Source: Chrysomallon squamiferum (lineage: Eukaryota; Animalia; Mollusca). Taken from it: a stretch of DNA of 64,000 nucleotides. The notes under the pieces are model-generated. The model made no database searches and was not told the DNA's origin. It worked only from the letters and a program-made list of their open reading frames with translations. Positions within the stretch are counted from its first letter, which is position 1, and each line of letters begins with the position of its first letter. The DNA lies in assembly GCA_012295275.1 (NCBI GenBank), contig CM022679.1, forward strand, positions 7,626,001 through 7,690,000, in the 5' to 3' direction. Shown here in pieces: positions 234 to 35,500 of this stretch. Both the position numbers and the translations under genes were made by a program.

Positions 234-753
234 ATGCACTGAACATATTTTAATTTAAGTGATGTGGCGTCATGTGTATGTGGTCGATTTTCGCACGGAA
301 AATCAGAGAGGAAACTCGCTTCCGCTAAGCGGTCACGTTTTCTTTGTTTTCTTTTCTCTTATCCTTTTTATTTTTTTTTTCTTAGTTTATTTTTTTTTTT
401 TTTTTTTTTTTCTTAGTTTTATTTTTATTTTTATTTTTTTCTTGAATATTTATTTATTTTATTTATTTATTTATTTATTATTTGTATTTTTTTTTTTTTT
501 TTTAGTGATTAGATGGCAAGAAAAAACATATCACTGCTTTAGGTAAGAGTGATAGAGTTCTTAAAAGCGAAATGATTTATATTGACTAAAATATAATATT
601 ATTAAAAATAAATAAATTAGTATTTTATGCACTGAACATATTTTAATCTAAATGATATGGCGTCATGTATGTGGTCGATTTGCGTACGGAAAATGAGAGA
701 GGAAACCCGCTTCCGTAAAGCAGTCACGTTTTCTTTCTATTCTTTTTTCTGTT

Positions 754-800
<47 letters not shown>

Positions 801-971
801 CTCTGTTTTTCTTTTTATTTATTTATAATATTTTTTGTTTTATTTATTTATTTATTTATTTTTTAAATTTTTATTGATTAGATGACAAGAAAACACATAT
901 CACTGTTTTAGGTTAGAGTGATAAAGTTCTTAAAGAGAAAGGGTTTATTTTTACTAAAGTATAATATTATT
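234..971. repeat. Diverged tandem duplication, period ~393 bp, probably a decayed SINE fragment with internal poly-T expansion
   Basis: atgcactgaacatattttaat...gagaggaaac(t/c)cgcttccg...polyT...gattagatg(g/a)caagaaaa...tataatattatt occurs at 234 and 627. SINE origin is from recalled similarity to a gastropod SINE, unverified. Confidence 0.8.
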
Positions 972-1634: not shown

Positions 1635-4600
1635 GTTTTTCGTATTCTCTGTCTGTCCGTGTGTCCGTCTACCTCGCACGGTCTTTCTTTCTCTCATATA
1701 TTTCTTTCTTTTTCATACTCTTTCAATTTTTCTTTGTTTTTCTTCTTTTTCCCGTTTTACATTATCCTCATAGATCGTCACACGTGAGACACGAACTGGA
1801 GAAGTCTGCAAGCTAAACTAAAAGGGCTTTTTTTTTTAACGTAGAAGTGATTTTCCTTAATAAGCAAGAATACGAAACGAAAGCAGTGTTTTCTTTTGTG
1901 TTTTCTTTAATAAGAAAAATCAGACACGTCTGACCAAAACGTGAACTTGCGACTATTATTATTATTTTCAAAAACGCAGACGACCGTTAATAAGCTTTCC
2001 TCCAGAATGGAATTAGTCATCACCGAACACCACTGCCAGGTGTTGATGTTGAATGATTAAAAATGTTTCTAATGCACGTGGATTTAACCATACGCTAATC
2101 AAAATGAAGCAGAGAGCGTCACAAATCCGCAGACGCCTAAAAAAAAAAATTACTATAGGATGAAATTCGATATAAATATTTCGACAAATAAAGCAGATTT
2201 TGTAACAAGAAGTTTCTAAGTTTTATATTACGTTTAGGGCCTCGTCAAGCATAAATCCGGCATTGGATGCATTCATACACAAAACATACAGCAGAATCTC
2301 ACTGGTTCAATGTTATAATTGTAGTCCTCAGAGTATATGTGTGTGTGTGTATATATACACATATATTCCTGTAAAGATCTTTGAACGTTTTATTTTATAT
2401 ATATATATATGCATGTGTGTGTGTGTTTCCTTTTCTTTTTGTTTTTGTTTTTTCTGTTTTTCTTTGCTCGCTAAATGATGTTGTTAAGTTCTTAACGTTC
2501 GACTACGACCAGACGAATGTAAGTCTTCTGTCAATATTACCAGTATCTTGATCCGCTAATCCGTGAAATACGAAAAGAAAAACCATCGAAACGAGACTAA
2601 CTTTACTGTGACTGCACATTTGTTTAGTTCAGCGTCAGGATTAATTATTTACGCGAAACGATCTGTAGATAAATCAGAGAATCGCTCAAATATCTCTGCA
2701 ATCTTTTCTCTGTCATGCTGCCCACCGGGCGGCTATCAGTATCGATATCTCTATAGTACAGCCGATGTTACAGTGACTGCTGGATGAATCGTGTTTCACA
2801 GAAACAGTATCAGTAACATCGAGTGTATTCTCATAAACTCTTCAGAGCAGAGTTTCTTTAACGGCTGAAAGGTAAAAAAAAAAAAAAAAAAAAATAGATG
2901 AAGGAGTCACTTCATTTACTGAGATTTTTTAAATATTATTATCATTGTTGTTCTGCTCTAAAAAAAAAAAAAAATAACTACGAATACCTTTTGAGTGATT
3001 AGTCAGCTTAAGTTGCTCTTTAATGTCAAGTGGAATTGGAAATGATATTAAAAGAAATGTATTGTTAATTATCTTTACATGCCTTTTTTCTTCTTTCTTG
3101 ACATATGTTTACGATGTTCAAAAACTGAAATAAAGTAGATACTTTACAAATGCAGTTTTTTTTTTTTTTTAATTTCTTATGTAACAAAATGAATTATTTA
3201 CATATAAAATTATTAGAGTATAAAAAAAATTGCAAATTTAGTCACAGGTGGGTTAAAAACTCGAGGATGAATCGAATGGCACTGAAACAGTTTAAGAAAT
3301 ACAATAGTGTTCTGAAAGAAATATCATGATGTCATATTTACAAACAATCGCCAGTTGTTGGTTTTTATTGCTGTTGTTGTTGTCGTTTTGATAACCATTG
3401 CTGAAGAAGATTTTATTGTTGTTGTTCTTTTTCAGGTTTTCAGGTTTTAGGTTTTAATTACGGTGAATGACGCAGTATTTCTATCTTCTTGTTATTACAT
3501 AGTTTGTTTCTTTGATGATCAATTTCCCTTTCATTTCACTTCCTTCTTTTTTAACTTTTTGTTGTTGTTGTAATGTTTGATTTTATAGTTTAGAGGGGGT
3601 TGTTATTGCCTGAGAAGTGTTCTTTTTGTTTTGAGGACGCGTTGATGTCGTTGTTTTATTATTCTTTTCGAAGTTTCACTTTAGAATTACAATTTGAGAA
3701 CAAGGTTCCAAAAAACAAAACTAAACAAAACAAATCAAAATGTCCACTGGTGGTGGATTCACCATTCCATGATGGCTAGTGTAGCATTTCGTAATTAATA
3801 TCAACTAGACAAGCATCCACTGACTTGTGTGTAGACCAATCAGAAACATAACCCGGAAGCGAAAGAAAGCAAACTGATCAGCTGAAAACAAACCAGTTTT
3901 GTAATCATGGACAGATGAATGTAATTTCAGTCTTTTCTCGTGTAATTTTACAGTCAATCCACAGCAGTGTTATTACTTCAGTTTTGAAGCGTCAGTACAT
4001 GACCAAAAGAAAACCAAAAATTTGACCAACTGACTCAGCGTATGACTCTTACAACAGGATCTGATAGAAGAATGCTTTATTAAAAATAAATTGTATTTAA
4101 CATTTCCTATCAATAAACAAGAGCTTATAAAAAAATAAAATATTTCTTGGTACTGTTTGTTGCCAGCGTTAATTATTCATCTTATAAGAAATCCGTTTAA
4201 TTTAAAGACAACATTTTGAATTTGACCAACACCGTAGAAGAAATATCTGTACTGAGAGAATTCACAAACATACAGAAAACCATAAATATTTTTGTGAAGA
4301 CCTCAGATATGGTAATGGAAAAGACAGAAAACGTCAAAGATCTTGTAAGAACCAGGCAAACAAGAAATGTAGACAGATCTGTTATTGACAGACACGTATC
4401 TTGGAAGATTCAGGGATTTTTCCTAAGACAAAAAGGTCAGTGCAACTTCCTCTTCCTGTATTCAGTGGCTTTGTTGTGGGTTTTCTTTTTTTCTGTTCAT
4501 ATTTGTTTAGTTATTGCAGTTGTTGTTTTGTTACTTTTTCTGGTTTTTTATTTTTTATTTTTAGTTCATACTGTTTAGTTATTGCAGTTGTTATTGTTTT

Positions 4601-5534
4601 GTTACGGGTTTTTTTTTTGGGGGGTTGGGGTTTTTTTGTGTGTGTGTATTTTGTTTGTTTCTTTTGTTTGGGATTCTTTGTTGTTTTTTTGTTGTTTTTT
4701 AATATTTTAAAAATAGTTTTAATTGTTTTTTATTTTTTGGTTTTTATTTTTGTTTAACTTTTTTTCTGGTTGTTTTGCGTGTTAGTTAATTAATAATGTC
4801 AAACATCTTATCATCATCATCATCATCATCATTTTTTTTCATCTCTTAAAAACGTTTTAAGGGGATTTGTGAAAGGACGATGTTCATTTTAATTACATGT
4901 GGCTGTCCACTGTTTGTAGACATTTTCTTCAATGTCACTGATTTAACCAATACTTCAGTAAAACGTTGGCGCTGAAGTGAATGCCAGACGCGTGTGGCTC
5001 TAACAGACAACCATTGTCAATGGAGTAAACTAGTTGATGAGGCTGTTTGAGTACATCTCTGTCTGCTTCCAGACTTTTAATTTCCAAGGACTTGTAAGCC
5101 CACAAGCGAATACCTAATAAAGTTCACAAAGGCAAAATACAGAATTTCAGAAAAGGGTCTGCAATTGTGGTGGAAAATATAAAGAAATAAAAAATAGTCT
5201 GCAAAAATAAATAAATAAAAAAATTAAATAAATATATAATATAACTATGTTGGATTTTAATACCCAAAGTAAATGCTTGATTTTTTATTTTTGTTCGTTT
5301 CTGTTTGTTTGTTTTGTTTGGCTATTGTTTTATTTGTTTTTCTTTATTTATTATTAATTATTTTCAAACGAATATATGCATTGAAAATTAAACTTTTTAT
5401 ACTGTTTAGTAGTTAGTCGGAACTGGAAAAACTAGAAAACACTATCAGAGACAAATTAATGATATTACCAAGAAACAAAATCAAAGCAAAAACGTGTAAA
5501 TTCTATATTAATTCACCTTTCTTTGAACATTATC

Positions 5535-5930
5535 TCTAGTTTTGACGTTATTATGATCATAGAATGAGCTCATATTTTGACAATAGTAAGGAGAACTTCA
5601 TCAAAAATATATATATACATATATATATACAATGATATTGTTTCTGAAGACTTTAACACTAAAAGTTTACATCGAAACAAACACAACTCCTTGCGACGCC
5701 ATTGTTAACGTCAAGGTGACTTCTTTTACGTCGTACTTGTGTCTATATAAGGACGACAAAAACAGAATGACGCAAGCCTGAGGGTTCTTTTTATAAAACA
5801 ATTGAACATCCACTACCCCGTTGATTTTTATCCGGGATGTGGAAAAAACGGCCCTTTTCAGGGCCACCCCCACCCACCCCCTCAATCTCATGAATGAGTA
5901 GTTCTCTGTTCATAATCCTATTGCTTTGCC
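5535..5930 (+). repeat. Histone-stem-loop-bearing local repeat, copy 1
   Basis: Near-identical to 8981-9240, 11420-11814 and inverted 14998-15385. TATATAA at 5744; stem-loop at 5850-5865; ends in (AAT)n. Confidence 0.95.
5846..5870 (+). terminator. Histone 3'-UTR-type stem-loop motif
   Basis: AAAC-GGCCCT-TTTC-AGGGCC-ACCC matches the metazoan histone mRNA stem-loop consensus; function here untested. Confidence 0.75.
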
Positions 5931-5980
<50 letters not shown>

Positions 5981-6127
5981 TAAATAAATATAATTAATTT
6001 AATTAATTAATTAATTAACTAAATTAATAAAATTAATTTAAAAAAAAAAAATATATAAGCAACAGTAATATTAAAAACAACAACATCATCAACAACAACA
6101 ACAATAATAATAATCAAATGTTCTTAT

Positions 6128-6374
6128 AGAGAGAAAGGACTACGTAGATACAGACTTGTAAATATACTCGTAAAAAAATACAAAATGTTTTTGAATGTAG
6201 TACAGGTCCACTATCAGCAGTCAGGCGGGTTATTGATTTTGCGGTGTAACAGAGTAATTAGGTTCGAATACACTTAATTCAACTATTTAGTCCCTCTTTC
6301 TAGCTCTGAAATACCACTAAAAACTACTATCGAATTTATTTTTATTTCATTTTATTATTATTTATTACTATTAT

Positions 6375-6434
<60 letters not shown>

Positions 6435-6561
6435 CAATTCATGCTTATCTTCTGTGGACAGTGTTTGTATCATATAACGAGAATCATTTCCTTTATTCTC
6501 TGAAACAATAGTTTGGTTAAAAGTTAGCAGATCATAATAACAATAATAAATGAAGAATGGC

Positions 6562-6613
<52 letters not shown>

Positions 6614-7252
6614 AAAAAGAAAGAAATAAAGAAAGAAAAGCTATATTTACGACGTCATAATGCCGTAGATTAAAAGCGTTTCTAAGTGCTTCGTGTTTTC
6701 CTTCTTTGCTAGGCGCACCACACCGGAATCCATTCGTAGATTGTGTCTATTGTGTGAATGAAATCTCGAAGTCAGAAGTCAGACCGATCACTAAATGTCT
6801 GCGTGAAACTGTCTCAGACCGCGATTTAATGAAGTTGAAAAGTTAGCATGACTTAACTTTATTGGTTTTCATTGTATCAGCAACCTTGACTTACGTCATG
6901 GTTTGACCTTGACGCTAATAAACGAAATTGTCGTTTTCTTTATGAAGTGTCGTCCATGAAATAAAGGTTATGTCATTATTTTGTTCCATTTTCATCCTCA
7001 TTCAAAAATAGTCCCACATTTTCATTACAGGACGTAATTCGATTAACTGGAAACGACTATTTTACTGGCAATAAGTAGAAACACAATTTGCTATGATAAT
7101 ATAATTATATTGTCCAATAGCTTTTTGAGTGAACAGCATTATTTGATTTATTTCGGTACAGAAGTTCAAAACTGTTGTTTTTATCTAGTGTTATCTAGTT
7201 TTATCTAGTTTTAAGCTGTAACATAAAAACAGAATAGACTGAATCCGTCACA

Positions 7253-7285
<33 letters not shown>
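6128..7285 (+). repeat. ~1.15-kb non-coding segment duplicated at ~10025-11155
   Basis: Long near-identical stretches (e.g. gctaggcgcaccacaccggaatcc; ttacgtcatggtttgaccttgacgc) differing mainly in microsatellite lengths. Confidence 0.95.
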
Positions 7286-7302
<17 letters not shown>

Positions 7303-7927
7303 TTTTTTAAATCTACCAGAATTCGTGCTATCGTAAATCAGAGCCCACCATTGGAGGTATGGGGAAATCAGCAGAAGAACGCTTGGTCAATGTCCGTACT
7401 TTTTTTTCTGAACGACTTTAATGTTAATTAGTTGTTCTGTGTAAATAACAAGTCGGTGTGTCTAGATATAACAATGAGGTTACTCTTGTAACGCAGGTGT
7501 AAGAATAACTCTAATGACAGAATTGGGACTCGTTATTTTCCTTATTATTTGTAATACGAACATTCAAATTAATTTTGGACAGGGAATAAAAAGGAGACGA
7601 TCTTATTGTTAAAATTTCCGGTTTAAAAAAAAATAATAATAATAAAATAAAATTAATTAGTTCTTGCAGAATGCACTTTTGTTAATTATGTCTCTAATTA
7701 GTATTAGTCGTGTTGATACAAATATACAGTAGGTAACAGGTTACGTAGCAGGACGCTGAGAAAAGAAAGAATGAAAGAAAGTCAACAAAAAGTAATTAAA
7801 AAACAAAATACAAAATATAAATTTACAAAGTGATTGCAAATCATAAATCTACATTTTCATATTTTATCATGGTCACCATAATATATACGAACGAAATACA
7901 TCATCCGATATTTTTTTCTTTTCTCTA

Positions 7928-7958
<31 letters not shown>

Positions 7959-8556
7959 CCTTCCACGAACGTATCTGAAAATTGCACAAACTGTCCACCA
8001 TAATGTATTAAAGTTCATGAAAATTACATATATTTTGCAGTCCTGAATGAAAAAAACATATTCGTTCAAGTAGATATGAAATGATAAATATGGCTGAAGA
8101 TGAAATAACGAATTTTTCATCACAGAGTTGCTCTGATAGTAAACAATAAATAAAACCTGGAATGAAACGTAACACATTACAAGACATTATCAAGCTGATA
8201 CAACATTATCAAGCTGATAAATCGGAATAAATACAGTGTATGAGACCAAGTGTGAAATATTTAAAAAAAAAAAAGGAAATCCTCCGATATTAGAAATAAT
8301 GTCTGCTGCAAACAAATGAATGAATAAATTCTTTAGTATATTATATGACACTTCAGACGTTTCAATATTAATGATTATTGTTTATTTTTATAATGATGAT
8401 ATACGAAAGATGATATATCGTTATCATTTTGTTGATTACTTTTATCGATCAACTGTCTGAGTTTTTTTGTTTGTTTGTTAAAGATCTATCCACAGACAGA
8501 CGAGAATGTACCGCGTACTTTAATATGTCCACCGAGGTATTCAGTTTTAATGGAAA

Positions 8557-8745
8557 ATTATCATTATTATTACCACTTCTACTACTACTACTGCTGCTGC
8601 TGCTGCTACTACTACTACTACGTCTACTACTATTACTTCTTCTTCTTCTACTACTACTACTACTAGTGCTACCAGAACTTACTACATCTACTATTATAAT
8701 TACTACTACTGCAACTATTAGTATTAGTATTAGTATAAGTATAGT
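8557..8745. repeat. Compound trinucleotide microsatellite (CTA/CTG/CTT/ATT)
   Basis: Direct. Confidence 0.9.
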
Positions 8746-8980
8746 TTCTAACGAAATCCACAGATCAAGTGATTATTAATTCATAATACTTTAATGCTGT
8801 TTGTTTTAATTTCACTTGCAAAGCGTAAGTAATTAAATAAAAGCTGTGAGGAATCACAGGTTCAAACCATGCCGCTACGTCATCTGGCTGTTATCAAATA
8901 CTGCTTGTGCTCTGTGACTGCTTAGAAAAAACTGTTCATCTGTACCTTCCTTACTATAGACGCATTTGAAAAACACAGCA

Positions 8981-9240
8981 CAGCGAAACAAACACAACTC
9001 CTTGCGACGCCATTGTTAACGTCAAGGTGACTTCTTTTACGTCGTACTTGTGTCTATATAAGGACGACAAAAACAGAATGACGTAAGCCTGAGGGTTCTT
9101 TTTATAAAACAATTGAACATCCACTACCCCGTTGATTTTTATCCGGGATGTGGACAAACGGCCCTTTTCAGGGCCACCCCCACCCACCCCCTCAATCTCA
9201 TGAATGAGTAGTTCTCTGTTCATAATCCTATTGCTTTGCC
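8981..9240 (+). repeat. Histone-stem-loop-bearing local repeat, copy 2 (5'-truncated)
   Basis: Direct sequence identity; stem-loop at 9160-9175. Confidence 0.95.
9156..9180 (+). terminator. Histone 3'-UTR-type stem-loop motif
   Basis: AAAC-GGCCCT-TTTC-AGGGCC-ACCC. Confidence 0.75.
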
Positions 9241-9820
9241 GAATATAATAATAATAATAATTAATAAATAAATAAATAAATAAATAAATTATTTAATTAA
9301 ATAATTAATTAACTAAATTAATAAAATTAATAAAAAATAAATAATAACAACAGTAATATTAAAAACAACAATAACAACAACAACAACAAAATAATAATAA
9401 TAATAATAATATTAATAATAATAATTATAATGATAATTATAATAATAACAATAATAATCAAAGTTCTTACAGTGAGAACTCTAATTTTGACGTTATTACG
9501 ATCATAGAAAAGACAAATTTTGACATAAGTAAGGAGAACTTCATCAAAAAATAGGTATATATACATATACAGCGAAACAAACACAATCAGAGAATGAATT
9601 GTTTCTAAGGACGACAAAAAGGTCTACGTAGATACACACTTGCAAATACAGATACTCGTAAAAAAAAAATACTAAATGTGAGTATTTTATGTATGAATCA
9701 TAGGAATCGCAGTGACCCTAAATCTGTTAACTTTGTGTTACTTAGTACTTACCATTATAATCAAGTGCAACCCACCCACCCCCTCAATCTCATGAATGAG
9801 TAGTTCTCTGTTGCTTTGCC

Positions 9821-9899
<79 letters not shown>

Positions 9900-10024
9900 A
9901 ATAAATAAAATAATAACAATAATAATAATAATAAATAAATGAATAAATAAATAATTTAATTAATTAACTAAATTAATAAAATTAATACAAAATAAATATA
10001 AACAACAACAACAATAATAATAAA

Positions 10025-10463
10025 CAGAGAGAAAGGATTACGTAGATACAGACTTGTAAATACAGATGCTCGTAAAAAAAAAAGTACAAAATATTTTTGA
10101 ATGTAGTACAGGTCCACTATCAGCAATTAGGCGGGTTATTGATTTTGCGGTGTAACAGCGTAATTAGGTTCGAATACACTTAATTCAACTATTTGGTCCT
10201 TCTTTCTAGCTCTGAAATACTACTAAATACTACTATCGAATTTATTTCTGTTTCATTTTATTACTATTATTTATTACTGTTATTATTTTTATTTTTATTT
10301 TTTTATTTTTTTATTTTTATTTTTTTTTTTTTTTTTTCAAGTTCATGCTTAATTTCTGTGGACAGTGTTTGCATTTCACTCAACGAGAATCATTTCCTTT
10401 ATTCTCTGAAACAATGGTTTGGTTAAAAGTTAGCAGATTATAAAAATAATAAATGAAGAATGG

Positions 10464-10501
<38 letters not shown>

Positions 10502-11124
10502 AAAAGAAAGAAAGAAAGAAAAGCTATATTTACGACGTCATAATGCCGTAGATTAAAAGCGTGTCTAAGTGCTTCGTGTTTTCCTTCTTTGCTAGGCGCA
10601 CCACACCGGAATCCACTCGTGGATTGTGTCTATTGTGTCTATTGTGTGAATGAAATCTCGAGGTCAGAAGTTAAACCGATCACTAAATGTCTGCGTGAAA
10701 CTGTCTCAGACCGCGATTTAATGAAGTTGAAAAGTTAGCATGACTTAACTTTATTGGTTTTCATTGTATCAGCAACCTTGAGTTACGTCATGGTTTGACC
10801 TTGACGCTAATAAACGAAATTGTCGTTTTCTTTATGAAGTGTCGTCCATGAAATAAAGGTTATGTCATTATTTTGTTCCATTTTCATCCTCAGTCAAAAA
10901 TAGTCCCACATTTTCATTACAGGACGTAATTCGATTAACTGGAAAGGACTATTTTACTGGCAATAAGTAGAAACACAATTTGCTATGATAATATAATTAT
11001 ATTGTCCAATATCTTTTTGAGTGAACAGCATTATTTGATTTATTTCGGTACAGAAGTTCAAAACTGTTGTTTTTATCTAGTTTTAAGCTGTAACATAAAA
11101 ACAGAATAGACTGAATCTGTCACA

Positions 11125-11155
<31 letters not shown>
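10025..11155 (+). repeat. Second copy of the 6128-7285 segment
   Basis: Direct sequence identity. Confidence 0.95.
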
Positions 11156-11161
<6 letters not shown>

Positions 11162-11419
11162 TTGCCGACATCTCCTCAACCTAATTTTATATGTCCACTC
11201 ACTTGATCTATTTGTTTTTATTTGTTTTTCTTTATTTATTATTAATTATTTTTAAACGAATGTATGCATTGAAAATGAAACTTTTTATATATTTTAATAT
11301 GTAGTCGGAACTGAAAAACTAGAAAACACTATCAGAGACAAATTAATGATATTACCAAGAAACAAACAAAAAAAAACCCGTGTAAATTCTATATTATTTT
11401 ACCTTTCTTTGAACATTAT

Positions 11420-11814
11420 CTCTAATTTTGACGTTATTACGATCATAGAAAGAGCTCAAATTTTGACATAAGTAATGAGAACTTCATCAAAAATATATAT
11501 ATACATATATCAGAGAATGATATTGTTTCTGAAGACTTTAACGCTAAAAGTTTACAGCGAAACAAACACAACTCCTTGCGACGCCATTGTTAACGTCAAG
11601 GTGACTTCTTTTACGTCGTACTTGTGTCTATATAAGGACGACAAAAACAGAATGACGCAAGCCTGAGGGTTCTTTTTATAAAACAATTGAACATCCACTA
11701 CCCCGTTGATTTATATCCGGGATGTGGACAAACGGCCCTTTTCAGGGCCACCCACCCCCACCCCCTCAATCTCATGAATGAGTATTTCTGTGTTCATAAT
11801 CCTCTTGCTTTGCC
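11420..11814 (+). repeat. Histone-stem-loop-bearing local repeat, copy 3
   Basis: Direct sequence identity; stem-loop at 11734-11749 followed by ACCCA. Confidence 0.95.
11730..11754 (+). terminator. Histone 3'-UTR-type stem-loop motif
   Basis: AAAC-GGCCCT-TTTC-AGGGCC-ACCCA. Confidence 0.78.
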
Positions 11815-11863
<49 letters not shown>

Positions 11864-12036
11864 ATTTAATTAATTAATTAAAAATATATATATAAACAAC
11901 AGTAATATTAAAAATAACATCAACAACAACAACAATAATAATAATAAATAAATAAATAATTTAATTAATTAATAAAAAAAAAATATATATAAACCACAGT
12001 AATATTAAAAATAACATCAACAACAACAACAACAAC

Positions 12037-12085
<49 letters not shown>

Positions 12086-14797
12086 GTAATAATTATAACA
12101 ATAATAATCAAAGTTCTTACTATGAGAACTGGTCTACGTAGATACAGACTTGCAAATACAGATACTCGTAAAAAAAATACTAAATGGGAATATTTTACGT
12201 ATGAATCACAGGAATCGCAGTGACCCTAAATCAGTTAACTTTGTGTTATTTGGTATTTACCATTATAATCAAGTGCAACATGATTTTTGCTTCATTAACA
12301 TATGAAATGAGTTCATTATATTTTACTAACAGCAGTAAATAACAGTCAACTTCTGTAAGACCACGTGTTACCTCACTGCTCCTGCCCAGTATTTGTTATT
12401 TAATTTAGAAATTAGCGCATTTCAACCAAAGCCATCTGCTTTTATCGTAATCACGTGCAAATGACGTCTGAAGCGGCCCCAATTACCGTTAAGTACTGCC
12501 ATTTGCCGACATCTCCTCAACCTAATTTCATATGTCCACTCACTTGATTTTCAGATAACAGAAAAGTATTATCTAAGTCACTTTAGTGATTTTTTTTTTT
12601 TTTTTTTTTTTTTTTAACTTAATGGCCAAAAACAGGCATTAACGAAACATCAAACAAATATATATATATATATCAGGTGACCTTGTGTTAAGTTCAGATT
12701 TAAGAAAGTTGACAAAAGAAAATAAATTCAGCTAAATGGAACCAGCAAATAATTAATACTTCGAATAACCCACTCTGTTGCTATCACCAGTGCCTGGTTA
12801 TAACTTTATTTTAATGCACTGGTATTAATTCAGATTTATAACCTTTTACCGTTACGGCGGAGCAGACACATTTTGAATGTCATGGCTTTAAACTAAGAGC
12901 CAAATGGCATGTTATATCTGCGACTCGGTGACACTAAATAGTTTTACCCACGAAACGTCCATCTTAGATTTAAATTATAACATCCACGTGACCACGATTC
13001 CTGTATTATCTCGTCAAACAGAGCTTTAAATAGAGCATTTGCTTTTTTGACGTTTTTTAATATTATATGTTGTTGTCGTTTTTTACTATTGTCTTAGTTG
13101 TTGCTGTTGTTGTTGTTGTTGTTTTTATTGTGACTACTACTATTATTGTTGTTATTGTTATTGTTATTATTATAACTACTAGTGCTACTATTATTATTGT
13201 TGTTGTGGTTGTTATTATTTGTTAATTTGTTTTAGTTTCACCTTTAAGGCAAGTAATGCGTGCGTGCATGTTTATCGTGAGTGTGTGTGTTTATCCATTA
13301 AAATACTGGCATTCCCAGCACTCATTAATAAGCGTTATTTCTACTCGATCACCCCAGGACTATTTCAATGGCTGTCTACTTCTTTCCGGCGTTCGTCAGA
13401 TGTCCAATGCATGTTTACGGCAATATCCGGACAACAAGGTCAACTGCTGATGATGGTTCAGCCAAAAGCAAACAAGCACTGAACTTCTCGAAGACTTTCA
13501 TGGCGATAATCGCCATGGGTGACATTAATTTCGCTTTCCTGCATTACAGGCCTGTTTGAGTCGGGGACAAAGCAAAGTGATCGCTAGATGCTTCGGTAAA
13601 TATTTACATAAAAGCAATATCGGACCCTACAAAACAAACAGAAAGATGCTCAATCTTTAGACTGCGTTTACTTACGCAATGAGCAAATGTTTGTGATACT
13701 GCGTTATAAATGCATGTCAAAATGTTTTGAGTGATCCGTTTGATAAAATTTAGCTAAAAAACAAAAAACAAAACAAAAAACGAAGAAGAAGAAGAAGAAG
13801 GAAAGTAAAAAAAAGAAAGAAAAAGTATTAAATCTCTGAATTATTATAACGTAATTTTAAAAACTGTTATTTTTATTTTCAACCCTTACTAAGTTTAACC
13901 TTTGTTTCCTTCTCTTTATTTCCTCTTTCTATCTTTTTCTTCTTTTCTTGCATCTTCACATTTTTATTGATATACGCGAATAGACACATCGAAACACATA
14001 CACGCGCGCACACATGGACATGCATACTCTTTCACTATTTTACGTGGGAAACAAAACAGTGAATAACACTTCAGAAAAACCAATACTATTCTTCTTTTAA
14101 TAAGTTCATAAAACTAAACATAATACACTCTAATTGCCACCAAAAGTATTTGCCGCATATGTGCAGCTCTTCTTTGGATTCCCTCCACAGTAATATTTCG
14201 TTAATAGCAATGATTACAGCTGGTGGGTTTCTGCCGATAGCATATGACAGATAACATATCAGAGCGTCAGTCAACAATTTTCAATCGTGTTTACATCCCG
14301 TGAAGATTCAAGCAATTCTGTCTTGGCTACATAATCCAGAGCTTCTTTGGTCTACCAGTGATAGTTAACATTAGTTTGTTAGAATGTTAGAGAGAACAGC
14401 AAGCATAACAGTCTTTATATTTTGGCTCTCTATAGTAGACGGGCGGCGATCTAGATTGTTTCTGATTTCAAAGCCGAGAGCCTAACGATTACATTATCGA
14501 GAATGGCATTTACATAAATAATAAATACGCCTTGTATGTATGATAGAATGGATGGGCGGTTGTATGTGAGTAGAATTATATTATAAATATATTGGCCAAC
14601 TTCAGATCTCATGTGAACTATAATCGTAAAAAAAGAGGGTTAAGAAAGTTTGTGAAATGTAGAATATTAAATAAATCGCTTGCAAACAAAAGTTCAGTTT
14701 TTCTCATGCACACATAAGCTAAACGTTTCTGGAAAATGTATACATTTTCTAAGTTTGTTGAGCCTGTTGATGTTTCTTTGATTCTTCTCGTTGTTGC

Positions 14798-14861
<64 letters not shown>

Positions 14862-14997
14862 TTGTTGTTGTTGTTGTTTTTATTTTTGTTTTTAATATTA
14901 CAGTTGTTTATATTTATTTTTTATTAATTTTATTAATTTAGTTAATTAATTATTTAATTAAATTATTTATTTATTAATTATTATTATTATTAGATTA

Positions 14998-15385
14998 GGC
15001 AAAGCAATAGGATTATGAACAGAGAATCCTCATTCATGAGATTGAGGGGGTGGGTGGGGGTGGCCCTGAAAAGGGCCGTTTTTCCACATCCCGGATAAAA
15101 ATCAACGGGGTAGTGGATGTTCAATTGTTTTATAAAAAGAACCCTCAGGCTGACGTCATTCTGTTTTTGTCGTCCTTATATAGACACAAGTACGACGTAA
15201 AAGAAGTCACCTTGACGTTAACAATGGCGTCGCAAGGAGTTGTGTTTGTTTCGCTGTAAACTTTTAGCGTTAAAGTCTTCAGAAACAACATCATTCTCAG
15301 ATATATGTATATACATATTTTTGATGAAGTTCCCATACTTATGTCAAAATTTGAGCTCTTTTTATGATCGTAATAACGTCAAAAC
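14998..15385 (-). repeat. Histone-stem-loop-bearing local repeat, copy 4 (inverted)
   Basis: Reverse complement of copies 1/3; stem-loop at 15062-15077. The adjoining AT/AAC tail is also inverted (~14800-14997). Confidence 0.95.
15057..15081 (-). terminator. Histone 3'-UTR-type stem-loop motif
   Basis: Reverse complement reads AAAC-GGCCCT-TTTC-AGGGCC-ACCC. Confidence 0.75.
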
Positions 15386-16466
15386 TTGTTGTTGTTGTTG
15401 TTATTGATTTTGGTGTTATTATTGTTGTTATTTTTGATGATGTTGTTGTTTTTGATTTTCTTCTTCGTTTCATTTTGCAACTGATACTGTCAAGAGAATA
15501 TCTGCAGCTCTGTTAGGAATGTAGCAAATGCATCTCGACTGACGTGGTTCATAAAATATACGATACGAATTTGTGTTATAAGCGGCATCTGTTTTACCGA
15601 GAATAAATTGACCATGACGCCATCTTTGGTAAATTATGACTACAAAGAATATCTGTCAGAGACGAAGTTGTGCGAAGAAAAAAAAATATATATATCCGTG
15701 CGTGTTTTAGAGTCAGCCAATTGAACTGGTACTAGATTAACGTTGTTATTAGTGATTTTGACGCGTAACAAATATGTCATGCAGTAATTGGAAGGGAACC
15801 GCCTGTCAGATTCTCGTCTTGTAAGTGTTAATTCTTAGCAATATGCAGGAAGTAACGTGTAAAAATTAATTTTTTCGAAATTAATAAATTAATGACAGAC
15901 ATTCTCATTTGGTTTCGAAGTGCATTATAATTATCAGCAGAATAAATGTCAGTAAATGTAACTCGGGTTGAGGTTCTTCCTGTTATTATTACCTTTTCTC
16001 CTCAACATCTTTCCGCTCATTTTCTTCTCATTCTTATTCTTTTATTCGTTAATATGTCTTCCTTTTCTTCATTTCTGAGCAGTAGATTTTTTTTTTCCCC
16101 ATACTTTTGGAGGATTGTATTACTGCTGTCAGCAATGGAAATACTGGTTAATGAAAACTGTCTTTTTTTTTTTACTGTTCAACATTTAGTTTTTCTTCCA
16201 TTGGGAGATTATTTTAATGTAGCAGCACACATCTCAGAAATAAGTTCAGAGGAACGAAATTATCATGTGAGACTGACTGAAAATTGTTCATCCATGTTTT
16301 GTTTTGTTTTTGTTGTTTCTTTATTAAGGAAAGACAAAGAATTCGTGTGAGTGTTTATATAATTTAACACAGTATAACAAATAATGAAGCAAATCTTTTT
16401 ATATATGTAAATATACTCGTTACAGTTTAAAAAAAAAAAAAAAAACTATCAAAGATGATGAATCCA

Positions 16467-16517
<51 letters not shown>

Positions 16518-19430
16518 CAACAACGATAACAATAGCAATAATAATAAAATAATAATTGAATGTCGTATAAAACTGATGAGCAAACTGTCAGTGCTCCAAC
16601 ACTCATTCTAATTATTATTAGTGACGACTGTTGTCAACTTGATTAAGATACCTGAATTTCTTTATAATAGAGTCATCTATATTTTTCATGGTAATTTCAT
16701 CTAAATTGTCAAAAACCAACATTTTGTGTCATTTAACAAACTTTGTATGTATGTTTTGGGGGGGCTAAGCTTCTGCGTGTTTTGACATATAAACAACTAA
16801 AGGAATATTAAAGTAAATAGTATCTTTAACTAGGGATGAATCTATTACAAAACTCAAGAAACTTAAGTTTCAGGTCTCTAAACCTACAAGCAGCTTTAGT
16901 CTAATTTTAATAAAAATCTAACATGTTGCTAATTTTTAAAAATCTGTTACAGAACAAACCATACAAGAACATAACAGTGGTTACCCAGACCTCTTTGTTG
17001 GTTGATAAGCATCCCCTAACAGTTCAAGTTTTTGGGCCCACCCCAAAAAATGTTACCGCTACTGTCTTTAATATAGTGTTATGCACATATGCCAGTGTTT
17101 CTGAACTATTTGTATACATTAATAGCTGTTTTGAAAACCATTATTATTATTATTATTATTTTGTTATTTCAAATAAACTGTTTTGTTTGTATTACCTCTA
17201 CTAATAAATGGACGTTTTGAAGCAGCACTGTTTTTTATTGTTGTTATTTTTTTATTTTTTTTATTTTTATTGTTGTTTTTGTTTTGTTTAGTTTTTTGTT
17301 GTTGTTTTATTTTTTTGTTAAAACAGAACTCAACATTACGCTAAATTACTGGCTTTAATCCATGCATTATGAGTTCTTAATATTCATTCAAAATAACAGA
17401 TTAAGACTTCTTAGATGTAATAAATCATTATATTTATATGATTTTTATTATCTGCTCGTCTCACGGTTAATTGCACTAGAAAGGACTCTGGTTAATTATC
17501 ACGAAAATGAAGTACCTAAGTTTTATATTAAAACATACTCCGTCAACATGTTTACCGCAAGAGCGTTCAGTGATGGATTATTCTGCATAATGTGGTCTTC
17601 ATCTTCTTTCTTCTTTTCTTTTTTCTTTTAAATCTGAGTTCAGTTTTGTAAAACTAATGCATTTACTTAAATTAATCGTATTTGCGGTGGAATGGTTTAT
17701 TTGATATATTTATGGCAATCTGGTTTCTTTTTTTTTGTCGATGTTGTTTTCGTTGTGTTTATCAATATTTGAGAAATGTAACAGTATATCTTTGTTATAA
17801 ATTCCATTATCCTATTTTCACAAGACTAATGTTACATTTTTTTCAAAAAGTGTAAGAATATCGGTAGTTACTGTACATGCGTGTCATTCAATACTTAATG
17901 CATTTTATGTATACTTTGTGATAAAAGACATATCGTATTTTTGTCAGAATATTCTGTTTATTGAGATATTTCAGTAATTAATTCTGGACAAGAAGTCTTA
18001 GATTTCTTTAACATAAAATACTGGCACTGGATAAAATTCATGGTGCTTAACGTTTTTATTAATGCAGCCAGTAGCCATATCATTCAGTGAAATTTAATTG
18101 ACCATTACAAAATGCAAAAATAAATAAATAAATAAATAAATAATAAAAAATAAATGATGTTTCCCAGAAAGAATAGTTAACATTCCAGATTAATTTAAAA
18201 ACAAATATAAATAAATAAAATTACAGATATGAAATATGCATGATATTAAAGATGTATCACTCATGCTTATCACATAATAATAGTATTTTTTTAAAGTAAT
18301 ATATATAATTTTTTTTTTTTATTTGTTTTATTTATTTTTTTATAAAAAAAAAAAATTTTGTCATTTTGGTTTGTTCTTGAGGGTGGGGTGTTTGTTTCTT
18401 GCTTCGTTGTTGATTTTTCGGCAAAGCATAAATTATCCATCCATCTTCTTTAACATCACAATCATGACACCAACATGTCGACATCGCATATCTCTTACAA
18501 CCAATAATTTAACAAAGTGTACAGTGTGACAACTACTGTTCCAAACAGTAACGACTTCTAACAGAGCGGAGGACAGATGCTCAATCAAATTACAATGTAT
18601 GTTTGTTCAGAGTAAAACCACCACAAAGCTTTACTCAGATCGAGATGTGAATCCGAAGTAAGTTAAATAAAGGTGACTGGTGATGTATCACTTGTAATTA
18701 AATTGCTCTATGTAGGTTACCCAGCCCCAGTGGGGGGGACACTAGTTTGAATTTTTTCTTGGTGACAGTAGATTGTTACAATCTTCTAACCCAGCATTAC
18801 TAGGGGAGTGTTAGATAACTATATGAAGTCTTATCTCTGTAACTAATCTGCTAACATACTAACCAAATACACACGGTAAAACAAGCATTACATGCACTGG
18901 GGCCCCTACCTACACACAACCATTTAATATTAATCATATATTTACTTACTGGTAATTTAAACAAAATTAGTTTTTAAACATTAGCAAATATCTTTAGTTT
19001 AGCATATTTATCTATTTATTGACCGTATATCACAACATACACAGATTAGCATGGGTCCTGTATGTTCTTAGGCCCCCAGGCAATTGCCTAGCGTGTCCAT
19101 GCATTAAGATTTAATTAACACTTTTAGCTGGGCTGTCGATTTCTGACAGGAATACCTTTCTCACAATCCAGCCAGTATCCCATAACTAATTCATATATGA
19201 GATAGTGCTGCTAATCCGTGTAGCAACTCAAATTATCTGCCAGCGCATTACATTTTCATCCTATCTCTAAACTCAAGAATTATAAAATCTTTTTTTTTTT
19301 TTTTTTTTTAAAAGTTACTTTGCACTACCAAACCAGTTTAATTTGTTCAATGGATATTAAATTTAAAGAAGAACAATTCAACAAAAAACAAAAATAATAA
19401 TAAAAATACAAATTATCATTTGGTATTTCA

Positions 19431-32500: not shown

Positions 32501-35500
32501 AAAATAATGATAGAAAATTTTAAAAAACCTATATTTTAAAATTAAGAAAAAGTTTTTAAATATTAAAAAAAACAAAATGTAATAATAAGTTACATGTTCT
32601 GTTACTATTAAAATAAATTAAATAATTGAATTATTACTGATAACAGGCTAACCTGAGAAATTATTATGCACAAAAGCATATGCTGTTAATTACATTATGT
32701 GTTGTTAATTATATTAACTTTAATTAATAAAACTTTTCTGCTACCTTCTGTTAACTACTGCCACAGTTTCCTCTTTCTCCAGAGCTGCACACATCACATG
32801 ATCAGTGAACTGAGTGTACGCTGGCACAGTCGACTGTTCACAGGTATTCAACAATATGTTCAAACCCTGAAATTAATTAATAATATACACCTGTGTGCAT
32901 TTTAATACACCTTTTTTTAACAGTTATACAAGAAAACTTTATGCCATGACTTCATCTATTCCTATCTGTCACCTTAAAAAGGATATTTTTTTATATGAAT
33001 ATTCCCAACATACAGGAAAACACACACCATGGCTTATGATAAACCTAACATAGAGGGCTGTCTGGAATGGGAAACAGTCTAATAAGTAAACTACAGCTCA
33101 CTCAAAACATGTCAAATACTAATAGAATATTTAAAAGACACATACAAATACTTTTTTTTTTCCTGGGATGTTCTTGGAAAGGTCTTTGTTGTTCTTTTTT
33201 ATAAAATAAGGCCAAACTTAAGTTAACTTATTATGTACTTTTTAACTAAGTTTACTTTTAATTTATTTATTTATTTATTTATATTTTTTATTATTATTAT
33301 TTACAAAAGCCTATTATTTAGAAAATATTAACAATTACTTTGCTAAAATTAAAGACAATTTAAAAAGATTCACAGCTAGAAGCTGGGGATAAATGTTTTT
33401 CCCTCTTTCAGTAAATATTTTATTATTTTAATGACTGTATTTCTCTTTTTTTTTAGTTATTTAAAATATTTTTTAAATTAAAAAATAATAATAAAATAAA
33501 ATTTTGATTATAAATTTTTTATTCTTATTAACAAAAGTTCACACATAAAATGAGAATTATCAGTTCATGATCTCCAAATTAGACACTACGTTCTCATTTT
33601 ATTTTTATTTTAATATTTATGTTACTGTGCACTTTTATTTCATTTTTGCAGTTTCATCTCAAAACCACAGACAGAAATAAATAAATAAATAAATAAATGA
33701 AATTTAATTCAGACAGTAAAGAAAAAGAAAAAAGTTATTTCCGAAATGGTTCATTCCATTTACAATAACAGTCAATACAAAATTATCTGGTAATGGACTC
33801 TTCCTTCATCATGACTGTAAATTTATGATCTCTTAATGGAAGAGTTCATATTGTACTAGAGAGTGGAAAGAATCATCTGAACAAATAACATTATTCAGTG
33901 AAATATTATTTATTAATGAAAAAACAAAGTTTGATTTTCATCTCACAAATTAATTGCATATATACTCATATTTGTACTGATATAAAAAAAAAATATTTTT
34001 TTTTTAAAATCGTTAAGTACATGTACTTCTCTGACATTCAGACAAAAGGTCATTAGCTGTTAAAAGTACGTTTCACCTAGCCACATGCTACTGACTCGCA
34101 ACAGTGATGGATGGAGTCTGTATATTAAATAAAGATAGATATAAATGGTATATTTTGTTTAAATAAAAAAGTATCTTAATAGAGTGCTTTTTTCTTCTTG
34201 CTTTTTATTTTTTGTACATGAACATTGAATGACACATTTTGTACATCTGTGTATGTATCAAATATTTGTTATATAGAAATGTTAACTATTTTTTTTTTTT
34301 AAATTCATAAATAAAATTAATTAATTAATTAATTAACTAATTAATTATTTCAAAATCTTACATTTCATCCTGATAGAACATAACCATTATTAAAAAAAAA
34401 ACCCCACCCAAAATGAAATTTATTCACCATAGGTTTTTAACTACTGAAATATATTTATACCTATAGTTTAAGACAAATAGTAAAGTATATTTTAAAAAAA
34501 TAAAAAAAAAAAATAATAATAATAATAATAATAATTCTTTAGCATTGTATTTTTGAAGGCCATGGGGTTAATTATACTGTCATTTAAGCAATCACTTCCT
34601 TGGACTCTTCCAATCCGTACACCCTATAATAAAAATGGAACACACTGGTACATTTAACTGGCAGGTGTTAATACACTGTAACACAACTGCACTTTAGACA
34701 GAAGTGCAAAACACTTTCTGCACCACAAGTTTCAGGATATTACCTTTTTGTACTTCTGTGAGCTTCTGCGCCCTAAGTCTACTGAATTACAGTTACAGTG
34801 ACCTTTGACATGATCAATAAACCCTGCAAGTCATCCCTGTCTGCCTCAGCATGTGAAGAGATTTTTATTAGCTCAATTATTTGGCTCTGCATCGGACTGT
34901 TACTACTGTTAAAGCAGCATACTGTGATGTTCATAAGTGGAAATTTGGAAATAATAATAATAACTATTTTTGTTTATTATTATTATTTATAATAATAATT
35001 GTTTTGTTTTTTTATTTATTTATTTATAAAAATAATTGTATTTTTTTTTAAAATAAAAATTTAATATAAAAGAAATTATTTTGTTTTTGAGAAAGATTTT
35101 TTATGTTAATTAATGAAAAAAAAAAAAATTAAAAATTAAAATCCTGCTTTTAAAAAAAAAAGTTATATATGTATAACTTTAAAAAAAAGATTTTAATTTT
35201 TATGTGACTTTTTTTCATTAATTAATATAAAAAATCTGTCACAAAAACAAAATAATTTCTTTTAATTTGTATTTTTTTTAAAAAAAATCAGTTAAAAAAC
35301 ATCATAACTTAAGAAAGTAATGGTTTCTTTAAATTGTATTGTGTAATTATTTTATAACTTACCAGTGGCTTCAAAGATGTTACATGCTTTTTCCAAGTTG
35401 GATCATCAAAATGCAGTCCAAAGGCATTCTGAAAATAAAAAATTACATTAAAAAATTGTGTAAATATTTATAAAAGAAAGCCAATATTTTATTTTGTGGT

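What the first reader, a model, noticed from the sequence alone, without database searches (positions are those of the whole stretch)
5535..15385. Amplified element with a perfect histone-mRNA 3' stem-loop but no histone gene
Seen: four copies (stem-loops at 5850, 9160, 11734 and inverted 15062-15077) carry AAAC-GGCCCTTTTCAGGGCC-ACCC with the 16-nt hairpin invariant. Each has TATATAA ~105 nt upstream, a CRE-like TGACG(C/T)(A/C)A, an imperfect hairpin (tccac..cccg/cggg..gtgga) just before the stem-loop, and a purine-rich GAATGAG ~25 nt after it. I find no H1/H2A/H2B/H3/H4 coding sequence nearby. Known: this stem-loop is the SLBP-bound, U7 snRNP-processed end essentially restricted to replication-dependent histone mRNAs. 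Inference: the unit could make a ~95-nt non-polyadenylated Pol II RNA (an SLBP decoy or S-phase-regulated ncRNA), could be a mobile element that captured the histone 3' end, or could be a histone orphon that lost its CDS. The copies are young, so invariance alone does not prove selection.
Basis: partly seen in the sequence, partly recalled or inferred. Interest (0 to 1): 0.85.

Follow-up and report, generated by a model that had tools for sequence, protein, structure and literature searches.

The report
Snail repeat carrying histone mRNA hairpin
Four neighbouring copies of a gene-less repeat in a snail genome carry a perfect copy of the hairpin that ends histone messages, but a more numerous sister form of the same repeat has different sequence at that spot, so the hairpin is likely a passenger on mobile DNA rather than the signal of a working RNA gene.

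Summary
In detail: four exact hairpins (0 by chance), TATA 106 nt upstream, no histone gene in 64 kb. The genome is a gastropod's. The four copies are young local duplications; invariance of 16 nt is expected (P=0.61). Read sets show a repeat family: roughly 30 copies share a 52-nt core, only about 8-12 carry the hairpin, and a sister form (about 11-14 or more) leaves the sequence at the first base of the stem (depth is a rough guide). The purine-rich element starts at +24, against +9 to +14 in 14 of 16 real histone genes; the 'CRE' lies behind the TATA. Best reading (0.55): a non-autonomous mobile repeat, possibly Helentron-type, with a histone-type 3' end as passenger. A TATA-driven structured RNA stays open (0.2): the core is more uniform than its flanks and the upstream hairpin appears to covary. 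Expression is untested. This scan noted similar gene-less cassettes in other genomes; I also found transposase, MADF and LINE-like loci with the hairpin in other animals.

The parts
5850..5865 (+). Histone-type stem-loop, copy 1
9160..9175 (+). Histone-type stem-loop, copy 2
11734..11749 (+). Histone-type stem-loop, copy 3
15062..15077 (-). Histone-type stem-loop, copy 4 (inverted)
5675..5870 (+). Core of copy 1 (AAACACA to stem-loop); same core at 8986-9180, 11560-11754 and 15057-15251 (-); 6 variable columns in 196
5687..5782 (+). Long imperfect inverted repeat; the TATA box straddles its terminal loop
   Evidence: core without stem-loop z -1.9 as RNA, -2.5 as DNA
5744..5750 (+). TATATAA; predicted Pol II start about 5774-5775 (inferred from usual spacing)
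   Evidence: sequence; chance of TATATAA in a 60-140 nt upstream window 3.6%
5768..5775 (+). CRE-like octamer, downstream of the TATA, variable among copies
5776..5827 (+). 52-nt segment (15099-15150 in copy 4) that forms one contig without differences at about 27-32 times single-copy depth; holds candidate 3' subterminal repeat 5793-5804
   Evidence: table 8
5809..5843 (+). Imperfect hairpin before the stem-loop; diverged genomic copies keep a hairpin here with other letters (read by eye)
   Evidence: table 7
5866..5931 (+). Tail: C-rich tract, displaced purine-rich element (9-mer at 5889-5897, +24), ending at an AAT microsatellite
5322..5674 (+). Upstream blocks shared with copy 3 (from 11208) and in part copy 4; begins with an 11-of-12 inverted match to 5793-5804 in copy 1
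5931..7291 (+). Microsatellite and co-duplicated downstream block (paralogue 9821-11161)
9479..9576 (+). Rearranged fragment of the upstream block, no stem-loop
9771..9823 (+). Tail fragment that has lost the stem-loop
11162..11207 (+). 46-nt copy of 12503-12548 set in front of copy 3

Best explanation
This is one subfamily of a gene-less repeat family of a gastropod genome, likely a non-autonomous mobile element, whose tail carries a histone-type 3' end (stem-loop plus a displaced downstream element) likely as a passenger. Shown: the repeat family, the local duplications, the different tails, the displaced element, the lack of any histone frame. Inferred: an ancestor of the element ended in a conserved motif, a hairpin and a T-run, as Helentron-derived HINEs do; one lineage ran past that end and took in a neighbouring histone-type 3' end, from a histone gene or from a transposon gene that ends the same way; the downstream element then drifted 11 nt outward by growth of a C-rich tract; a sister lineage has another hairpin at that spot; and replication template switching at short microhomologies multiplied the unit four times within 10 kb. 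If a copy is transcribed from the TATA the hairpin would still bind SLBP, but nothing shows that this is selected. The transposition mechanism (rolling circle, about 0.3 of the 0.55) is not established.
For: Family size: one 56-nt contig covers 15099-15150 with no difference at depth 1692 in X3 (unique flank 53.2) and 151.5 in X2 (single-locus contigs 4.6-6.0). Contigs with stem-loop and tail: 445 in X3, 43 in X2, 54 in X1 (flank 8.2), about 7-8 fold; contigs crossing into the stem 619 in X3, about 12 fold. A contig that matches 15078-15128 and leaves at the first base of the stem has depth 767 (X3), 63 (X2), 2727 (X5) and shows as a loose end in X1: 4 of 4 DNA runs of organism A laid. Three further kinds of contig leave at 15107, 15110, 15114; the two loose ends at 15107 finish in a T-run in element sense. 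Diverged copies (85-90% alike) extend at least 150 nt upstream of the TATA (table 8), so the unit spread as more than a 95-nt RNA. Downstream element: best 9-mer at +24 with 2 mismatches (9.3% of random 45-mers do as well) against +9 to +14 in 14 of 16 Pfam-confirmed histone genes; profile score at the usual place -6.6 against -3.0 to 9.7. Copy 1 starts with an 11-of-12 inverted match to the conserved motif at the duplication boundary (chance 0.4-0.9% per boundary). Junctions carry short microhomologies. Precedent: a Culex Helentron carries histone gene fragments in 8 copies (PMC4067079, section 12 read). Histone-type ends occur on a DDE_Tnp_4 transposase gene, two MADF genes and before a LINE-like ORF1 in other animals.
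Against: The core is more uniform than its flanks (6 of 196 against 24 of 216 variable columns in three copies, p=0.002), although another duplicated block is as uniform (11 of 581, p=1.0). The 52-nt segment has no common variant where the 50 nt before the TATA have 8 (p=0.002; the table hides differences near contig ends). TATA-to-stem spacing fits a 95-nt Pol II RNA. Only 30 letters of each foreign tail are shown, so a stem-loop further out is not excluded; one diverged X5 contig ends on the first half of the stem 10 nt further out, and the sister shares AATCTCA with the tail, so the stem-loop may be old in the family and lost in the sister. A 12-nt insertion before the downstream element shifts but does not stop cleavage in mouse extract (PMC7026596, passages). 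The subterminal match is broken by two extra T in copy 3, was found after looking at several boundaries, and no empty site, autonomous partner or parent histone gene could be looked for (no genome held). Contig depth is not a copy number, and 79 and 32 pieces were not shown.
Confidence: 0.55

Rival explanations
1. A multicopy family of TATA-driven, structured short RNA genes. The RNA body (start site to the TCCAC/GTGGA hairpin) is the selected part; this subfamily ends it with the histone stem-loop and could bind or titrate SLBP, while others use another hairpin (with ATTAAA in its loop) or a T-run.
For: Core more uniform than flanks; 52-nt segment just behind the predicted start identical at about 30-fold depth; two diverged loose ends keep the hairpin with what look by eye like paired changes on both arms (table 7); the TATA + 78-108 nt + stem-loop layout without a histone frame recurs in 21 metagenome loci of other organisms, one in tandem 282-nt units with CCAAT boxes.
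Against: The same conservation is expected of a transposon's terminal motif and palindrome; gene conversion or recent spread also explains it. Downstream element displaced. CRE-like site lies behind the TATA and varies. TATA sits in a DNA palindrome. AWTAAA occurs in 12.5% of random 30-mers. The 21 loci were selected for a TATA, have no control scan, fall into about 11 unrelated groups and none resembles this unit beyond the stem-loop.
Confidence: 0.2
2. The unit is a terminal repeat (solo LTR/TRIM- or Penelope-like) whose promoter, R region and 3'-end signal are TATA, 95 nt and the histone stem-loop; the sister uses a poly(A)-type signal instead.
For: Promoter-R-end-signal layout; ATTAAA at the matching place in the sister; one locus holds part of the core twice 258-261 nt apart (tables 5, 8); tandem and solo TRIM repeats exist in bivalves (PMC6934838, passages).
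Against: No TG...CA ends, target-site duplication or primer-binding site at the boundaries printed; no tRNA in the window; no internal domain or retroelement frame seen; no hammerhead or other Rfam family at E up to 10.
Confidence: 0.13
3. An internally deleted histone orphon (H1-like promoter with AAACACA and TATA fused to its own 3' end), copied passively by local duplication.
For: AAACACA about 65 nt before the TATA (the 'H1 box' is recalled, not from a call); deletion-type loci exist, e.g. L004 with an ATG and an Ala/Pro-rich start 40 nt before a stem-loop; local copies arose by duplication.
Against: No histone codons left; no CCAAT in the promoter; AAACACA absent from all 14 histone promoters read, one of them H1, and from a diverged copy's loose end; dispersed diverged copies with other tails.
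Confidence: 0.12

Closest known systems
Metazoan replication-dependent histone mRNA 3' end (Rfam RF00032 Histone3; SLBP, U7 snRNP)
   Same: Exact 6-4-6 stem-loop with AAAC and ACC flanks, identical in sequence to that of real histone genes L044, L045, L053, L059
   Different: No histone frame; C-rich where the downstream element belongs (3 purines in +11..+20 against 4-9); best element at +24; score below Rfam's gathering cut-off
HINE / DINE-1-type non-autonomous Helentrons (PMC4067079, PMC7492417; passages read)
   Same: Non-coding, microsatellite-rich, clustered and tandem copies; conserved motif followed by a hairpin and, in some copies, a T-run; histone gene capture known in Culex
   Different: Subterminal repeat clean in one copy only; no inverted repeat seen beside it; no empty TT site or partner found; cargo is the non-coding histone 3' end, not coding fragments
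U7 snRNA (PMC5054213, PMC7026596; passages read)
   Same: About 68 nt from predicted start to end of the first hairpin; UCUUU box near the 5' end; hairpin of variable sequence; clustered copies
   Different: No Sm site behind the UCUUU box; the only near match (9 of 10) lies 40 nt on, inside the hairpin, and is broken in copy 3; no Rfam U7 hit
TRIM / solo LTR (biv-TRIM, PMC6934838, passages read)
   Same: Short repeat with promoter-like and end-like signals, tandem forms
   Different: No LTR ends, target duplication, PBS or internal domain seen

Membership tests
Replication-dependent histone gene | Conserved stem-loop with A-rich 5' and ACC 3' flanks | tested here: met
   (E about 1e-4; 28 bits, below gathering 34)
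Replication-dependent histone gene | Histone reading frame ending shortly before the stem-loop | tested here: not met
Replication-dependent histone gene | Purine-rich downstream element about 9-14 nt after the stem | tested here: not met
   +24; profile score -6.6 at the usual place, +2.7 when shifted 11 nt
Replication-dependent histone gene | Pairing with the species' U7 snRNA; RNA ending 4-5 nt after the stem; SLBP binding | not testable with these tools
   no genome, no raw RNA reads among the 11 runs listed
HINE / Helentron | 11-15 bp subterminal inverted repeats | tested here: inconclusive
   11 of 12 at 5322-5333 against 5793-5804, at the duplication boundary (chance 0.4-0.9%); two extra T in copy 3; copies 2 and 4 lack this end; at 2 mismatches hits are at chance level
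HINE / Helentron | 3' palindrome followed by 2-5 T | tested here: inconclusive
   hairpin 5809-5843; T-run follows it in the two loose ends at 15107, not in the window copies or the sister
HINE / Helentron | Short inverted repeat beside the 5' subterminal repeat | not tested
   none seen by eye in 5322-5360; scripts tested only the head of the next block
HINE / Helentron | Insertion at TT without target duplication; autonomous Rep/Helicase partner | not testable with these tools
   no genome held; copy 3 starts after GAT where the paralogous block goes on with TTT, one case only
U7 snRNA | UCUUU histone-binding box near the 5' end | tested here: met
   position 11 in all four copies
U7 snRNA | Sm site RUUUNUCYNG directly behind the box and before the hairpin | tested here: not met
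   no RF00066 hit at E up to 10 in 161 nt
LTR / TRIM terminal repeat | TG...CA ends, target duplication, PBS and PPT | tested here: not met
   boundaries printed, read by eye; true ends are blurred by rearrangement
tRNA-derived SINE | Pol III A and B boxes / tRNA head | tested here: not met
   no B box at 2 mismatches in 5328-5931; no tRNA
TIR MITE (Tourist/Harbinger-type) | Terminal inverted repeats | tested here: not met
   no inverted partner of the last 14 nt of the tail in 3500-17500 other than the copies themselves

The most novel reading that the evidence does not exclude
A mobile-element family of a gastropod makes a short TATA-driven structured RNA whose 3' module is exchangeable, and this subfamily has plugged in the histone stem-loop, so that its RNA is ended, stabilised or timed to S phase by SLBP and U7, or soaks up SLBP. 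It would be one case of a wider habit: Harbinger-type transposase and MADF genes and a LINE-like 5' end in other animals also carry the histone 3' signal.
Probability: 0.2. Interest if true: 0.82.

Novelty: new variant of a known kind. Interest (0 to 1): 0.42.

Why it matters
The histone stem-loop is taken to mark replication-dependent histone messages alone (PMC9745837 abstract start; PMC13525598 passages). As a passenger it shows one route by which mobile DNA spreads this signal through a genome, giving raw material for new SLBP targets. If transcribed and processed it would be a non-histone client of SLBP/U7 and a possible decoy. The side result, transposon genes with stem-loop and correctly spaced downstream element, makes the question directly testable and may matter more than this locus.

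Tried and rejected
Expression: two metatranscriptome runs (X8, X9; contigs only) cover the unique flank at depth about 3 and one diverged piece 15148-15213, and no contig covers 14998-15145; DNA carry-over is possible and contigs lose short RNAs, so this says nothing. Other species: organism B run X10 laid 0 contigs, relationship unknown. No relative of the unit in viral contigs (0), GTDB contigs (0) or the 64 loci fetched. Protein coding: the 49-codon frame ending at 5781 has no Pfam family; 25 variants give 4 silent and 21 replacement changes including a stop in the majority allele (neutral share 22%), plus frameshifts: not coding. Its start resembles ubiquitin residues 1-27 (13 of 28 identical; E 2.4e-7 is summed over 8 repeats of a polyubiquitin); 0 of 1500 random stretches scored as high, but the query was picked from 1.8 billion proteins and the variants do not move towards ubiquitin: left as a weak lead. 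U7 gene, spliced-leader RNA, hammerhead retrozyme, tRNA-SINE and TIR-MITE were considered and fail their defining features. A sharp module boundary at the predicted start site (my note) was dropped: most loose ends at 15145-15148 look like diverged homologues by eye, and the stretch laid ended at 15150. The loose-end letters were not folded by a tool, so the covariation is by eye only. The first downstream-element profile wrongly held L057 and a partial H3 and lacked L054; redid it on the 16 Pfam-confirmed genes; scores quoted for non-histone loci come. The bacterial promoter scan is not applicable. Literature: searches listed no paper on gene-less or transposon-borne histone stem-loops (listings only; most subscription papers are missing; the classic spacing papers and the survey of histone 3' ends in invertebrates were not held; no supplements were read, and invertebrate U7 sequences there could bear on the pairing test).


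Full report
Observation. The 16-mer occurs exactly four times at the stated places, with no further match at two mismatches and none in 100 shuffles. Rfam Histone3 hits all four at 27.8-28.3 bits, E about 1e-4, under the gathering score of 34. TATATAA is at 5744-5750, 106 nt before the stem; a hairpin at 5809-5843 folds better than shuffles (z -2.6); GAATGAG starts 27 nt after the stem. The CRE-like octamer lies behind the TATA, over the predicted start, and varies among copies. To test for histone remnants I took real histone genes from animal contigs found inside GTDB bins (43 loci, 30 distinct stem-loop contexts, 16 confirmed as histones by Pfam): tblastn of 23 proteins against the window gave one non-histone hit at E 0.087. 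The neighbouring gene is TMEM94, best hit Gigantopelta aegis at 53%, then Haliotis and Patella, so the genome is a gastropod's. No whole genome is held.

Local structure. Self-comparison shows nested duplications: 5328-6114 with 11216-12048, 5869-7291 with 9771-11163, 8980-9771 with 11554-12279, and an inverted copy at 14782-15386. There are also a head fragment (9479-9576) and a tail fragment that has lost the stem-loop (9771-9823). Junctions carry short microhomologies, and a 46-nt piece of 12503-12548 is set before copy 3; this suggests template switching (inference). The 196-nt core has 6 variable columns, so an invariant 16-mer has P=0.61. The core is more uniform than the flanks (6 of 196 against 24 of 216, p=0.002), but no more than another duplicated block (3 of 195 against 11 of 581, p=1.0).

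Family in the genome. Nine runs of organism A hold the stretch or part of it; I laid six of them and one of organism B, all as contigs. The unique flank has depth 8.2 (X1) and 53.2 (X3). One contig without differences covers 15099-15150 at depth 1692 in X3 and 151.5 in X2, about 32 and 27 times single copy (X2 single copy judged from three contigs of depth 4.6-6.0). Contigs with stem-loop and tail reach 445 (X3), 43 (X2) and 54 (X1), about 7-8 fold; those crossing into the stem 619 in X3, about 12 fold. A contig that follows 15128-15078 and leaves at the first G of the stem has depth 767 (X3), 63 (X2) and 2727 (X5, against 511 for the stem-loop tail) and is seen in X1 too. Its first 30 loose letters hold a 4-bp hairpin with ATTAAA in the loop and then AATCTCA, which also follows the stem-loop in the window. 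Other contigs leave at 15107, 15110 and 15114; by eye the first two keep the upstream hairpin with paired changes, and the loose ends at 15107 finish in a T-run. One locus holds 15111-15148 twice, 258-261 nt apart. Copies 85-90% alike reach at least to 15332. The tool warns that summed depth is no copy number, and 79 and 32 pieces were not shown; these ratios are rough. Against my reading: only 30 letters of each tail are visible, and one diverged X5 contig ends on the first half of the stem 10 nt further out, so the stem-loop may be old in the family and lost in the sister. Either way the sister multiplied without it at that place.

Processing signal. In 14 of 16 real histone genes the best match to the 9-nt invertebrate consensus (recalled) starts at +9 to +14; in all four copies it starts at +24 with two mismatches, which 9.3% of random 45-mers also reach. 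Purines in +11..+20: 3 against 4-9. Profile score at the usual place -6.6 against -3.0 to 9.7 (leave-one-out), +2.7 if shifted by 11 nt. The C-rich tract after the stem looks like a 10-11 nt expansion (inference). In mouse extract a 12-nt insertion moves the cut by about 12 nt but does not stop it (PMC7026596, passages); Drosophila needs both SLBP and U7 pairing (PMC3884669, passages). So processing is doubtful, not excluded, and the species' U7 is unknown.

What kind of element. HINEs have 11-15 bp subterminal inverted repeats, a 3' palindrome, terminal T's and microsatellites, and a Culex Helentron carries histone fragments (PMC4067079 passages and section 12; PMC7492417 passages). Here the shared block of copies 1 and 3 begins with an 11-of-12 inverted match to the most widely shared motif, 39 nt before the end of the hairpin (chance 0.4-0.9% per boundary), but copy 3 has two extra T and I looked at several boundaries. 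Membership is therefore inconclusive. LTR ends, terminal inverted repeats, Pol III boxes and a U7 Sm site were looked for and not found. The frame ending at 5781 evolves without coding constraint. The region 5687-5782 is a long imperfect palindrome with the TATA at its loop, which suits a DNA element as well as a promoter.

Elsewhere. A scan for TATA + 78-108 nt + stem-loop found 21 metagenome loci; 75 of their 92 frames of 85 aa or more were scanned (near-duplicate loci left out) and none hit any Pfam family, histones included; none resembles the unit beyond the stem-loop. In five related loci the stem-loop lies about 55 nt before an ORF with a CCHC knuckle whose relatives carry zf-CCHC or PRE_C2HC, as LINE ORF1 proteins do (the LINE label is inferred). 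Among the 30 contexts, six non-histone frames end 16-24 nt before a stem-loop with a correctly placed downstream element: a DDE_Tnp_4 transposase (L062), two MADF proteins (L026, L041), a RING protein (L064) and two unnamed. That transposase and MADF are the two genes of Harbinger elements is recalled. Earlier notes of this scan report gene-less stem-loop cassettes read as mobile repeats and a Merlin transposon with a histone ending in other genomes; I did not check them. Ten literature searches listed no paper on this (see Tried and rejected).

Verdict. Real feature, most likely a mobile repeat with a passenger histone-type end (0.55); short RNA gene family 0.2; terminal repeat 0.13; deleted orphon 0.12. 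New variant of a known kind; interest 0.42. Expression and the whole-genome view are the missing tests.

Noticed in passing
L062:1-873 (+), L026:196-651 (-), L041:201-998 (-): A DDE_Tnp_4 transposase frame and two MADF frames end 19-24 nt before a perfect histone stem-loop with a downstream element at canonical spacing: Harbinger-type transposon genes that may use histone-type 3' ends. Possibly more interesting than this window's finding.
   Followed up: partly
L064:204-893 (-), L055:3-881 (+), L057:155-514 (-), L006:753-1814 (+), L008, L017: Further non-histone frames (one RING finger, the rest without Pfam family) ending 15-25 nt before a histone stem-loop, most with a purine-rich element behind it.
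   Followed up: partly
L007:411-560, L016:1039-1180, L013/L014/L021: Stem-loop plus purine-rich run about 55 nt before the ATG of a LINE ORF1-like protein; the shared block begins 42-43 nt after unrelated TATA boxes in three variants. U7 cleavage could define the element's 5' end, or the element favours such promoters; TATA was selected for by the scan.
   Followed up: partly
L006:136-830 (-), L063:650-830 (-): Units of CCAAT boxes, TATA, about 65 nt and a histone stem-loop with no reading frame; tandem with a 282-nt period in L006.
   Followed up: partly
L009, L011, L015, L018, L019, L020: A family of TATAAAAG + about 80 nt + stem-loop units, 73-99% alike, no frame found.
   Followed up: no
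L004:1501-1607: TATA, an ATG with an Ala/Pro-rich start, then directly a stem-loop: looks like an internally deleted histone gene.
   Followed up: no
window 5632-5715 (+), 11519-11600 (+): The start of the short frame resembles ubiquitin residues 1-27 (13 of 28 identical); chance or a decayed captured fragment.
   Followed up: partly
window about 25800-46900 (-): TMEM94 gene, many exons, ending about 10 kb from the repeat cluster.
   Followed up: partly
window 35042-35287: 246-nt imperfect palindrome, 80% self-complementary, MITE-like, inside the TMEM94 span.
   Followed up: no
window 234-971: Direct repeat of about 370 nt at 82% identity.
   Followed up: no
window 9462-9480 and 12112-12130: 19-nt palindrome after the microsatellite, arms kept while the centre differs, next to a rearrangement junction.
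   Followed up: partly
L022-L064: Several GTDB bins contain animal histone clusters and transposon contigs, i.e. host contamination.
   Followed up: no
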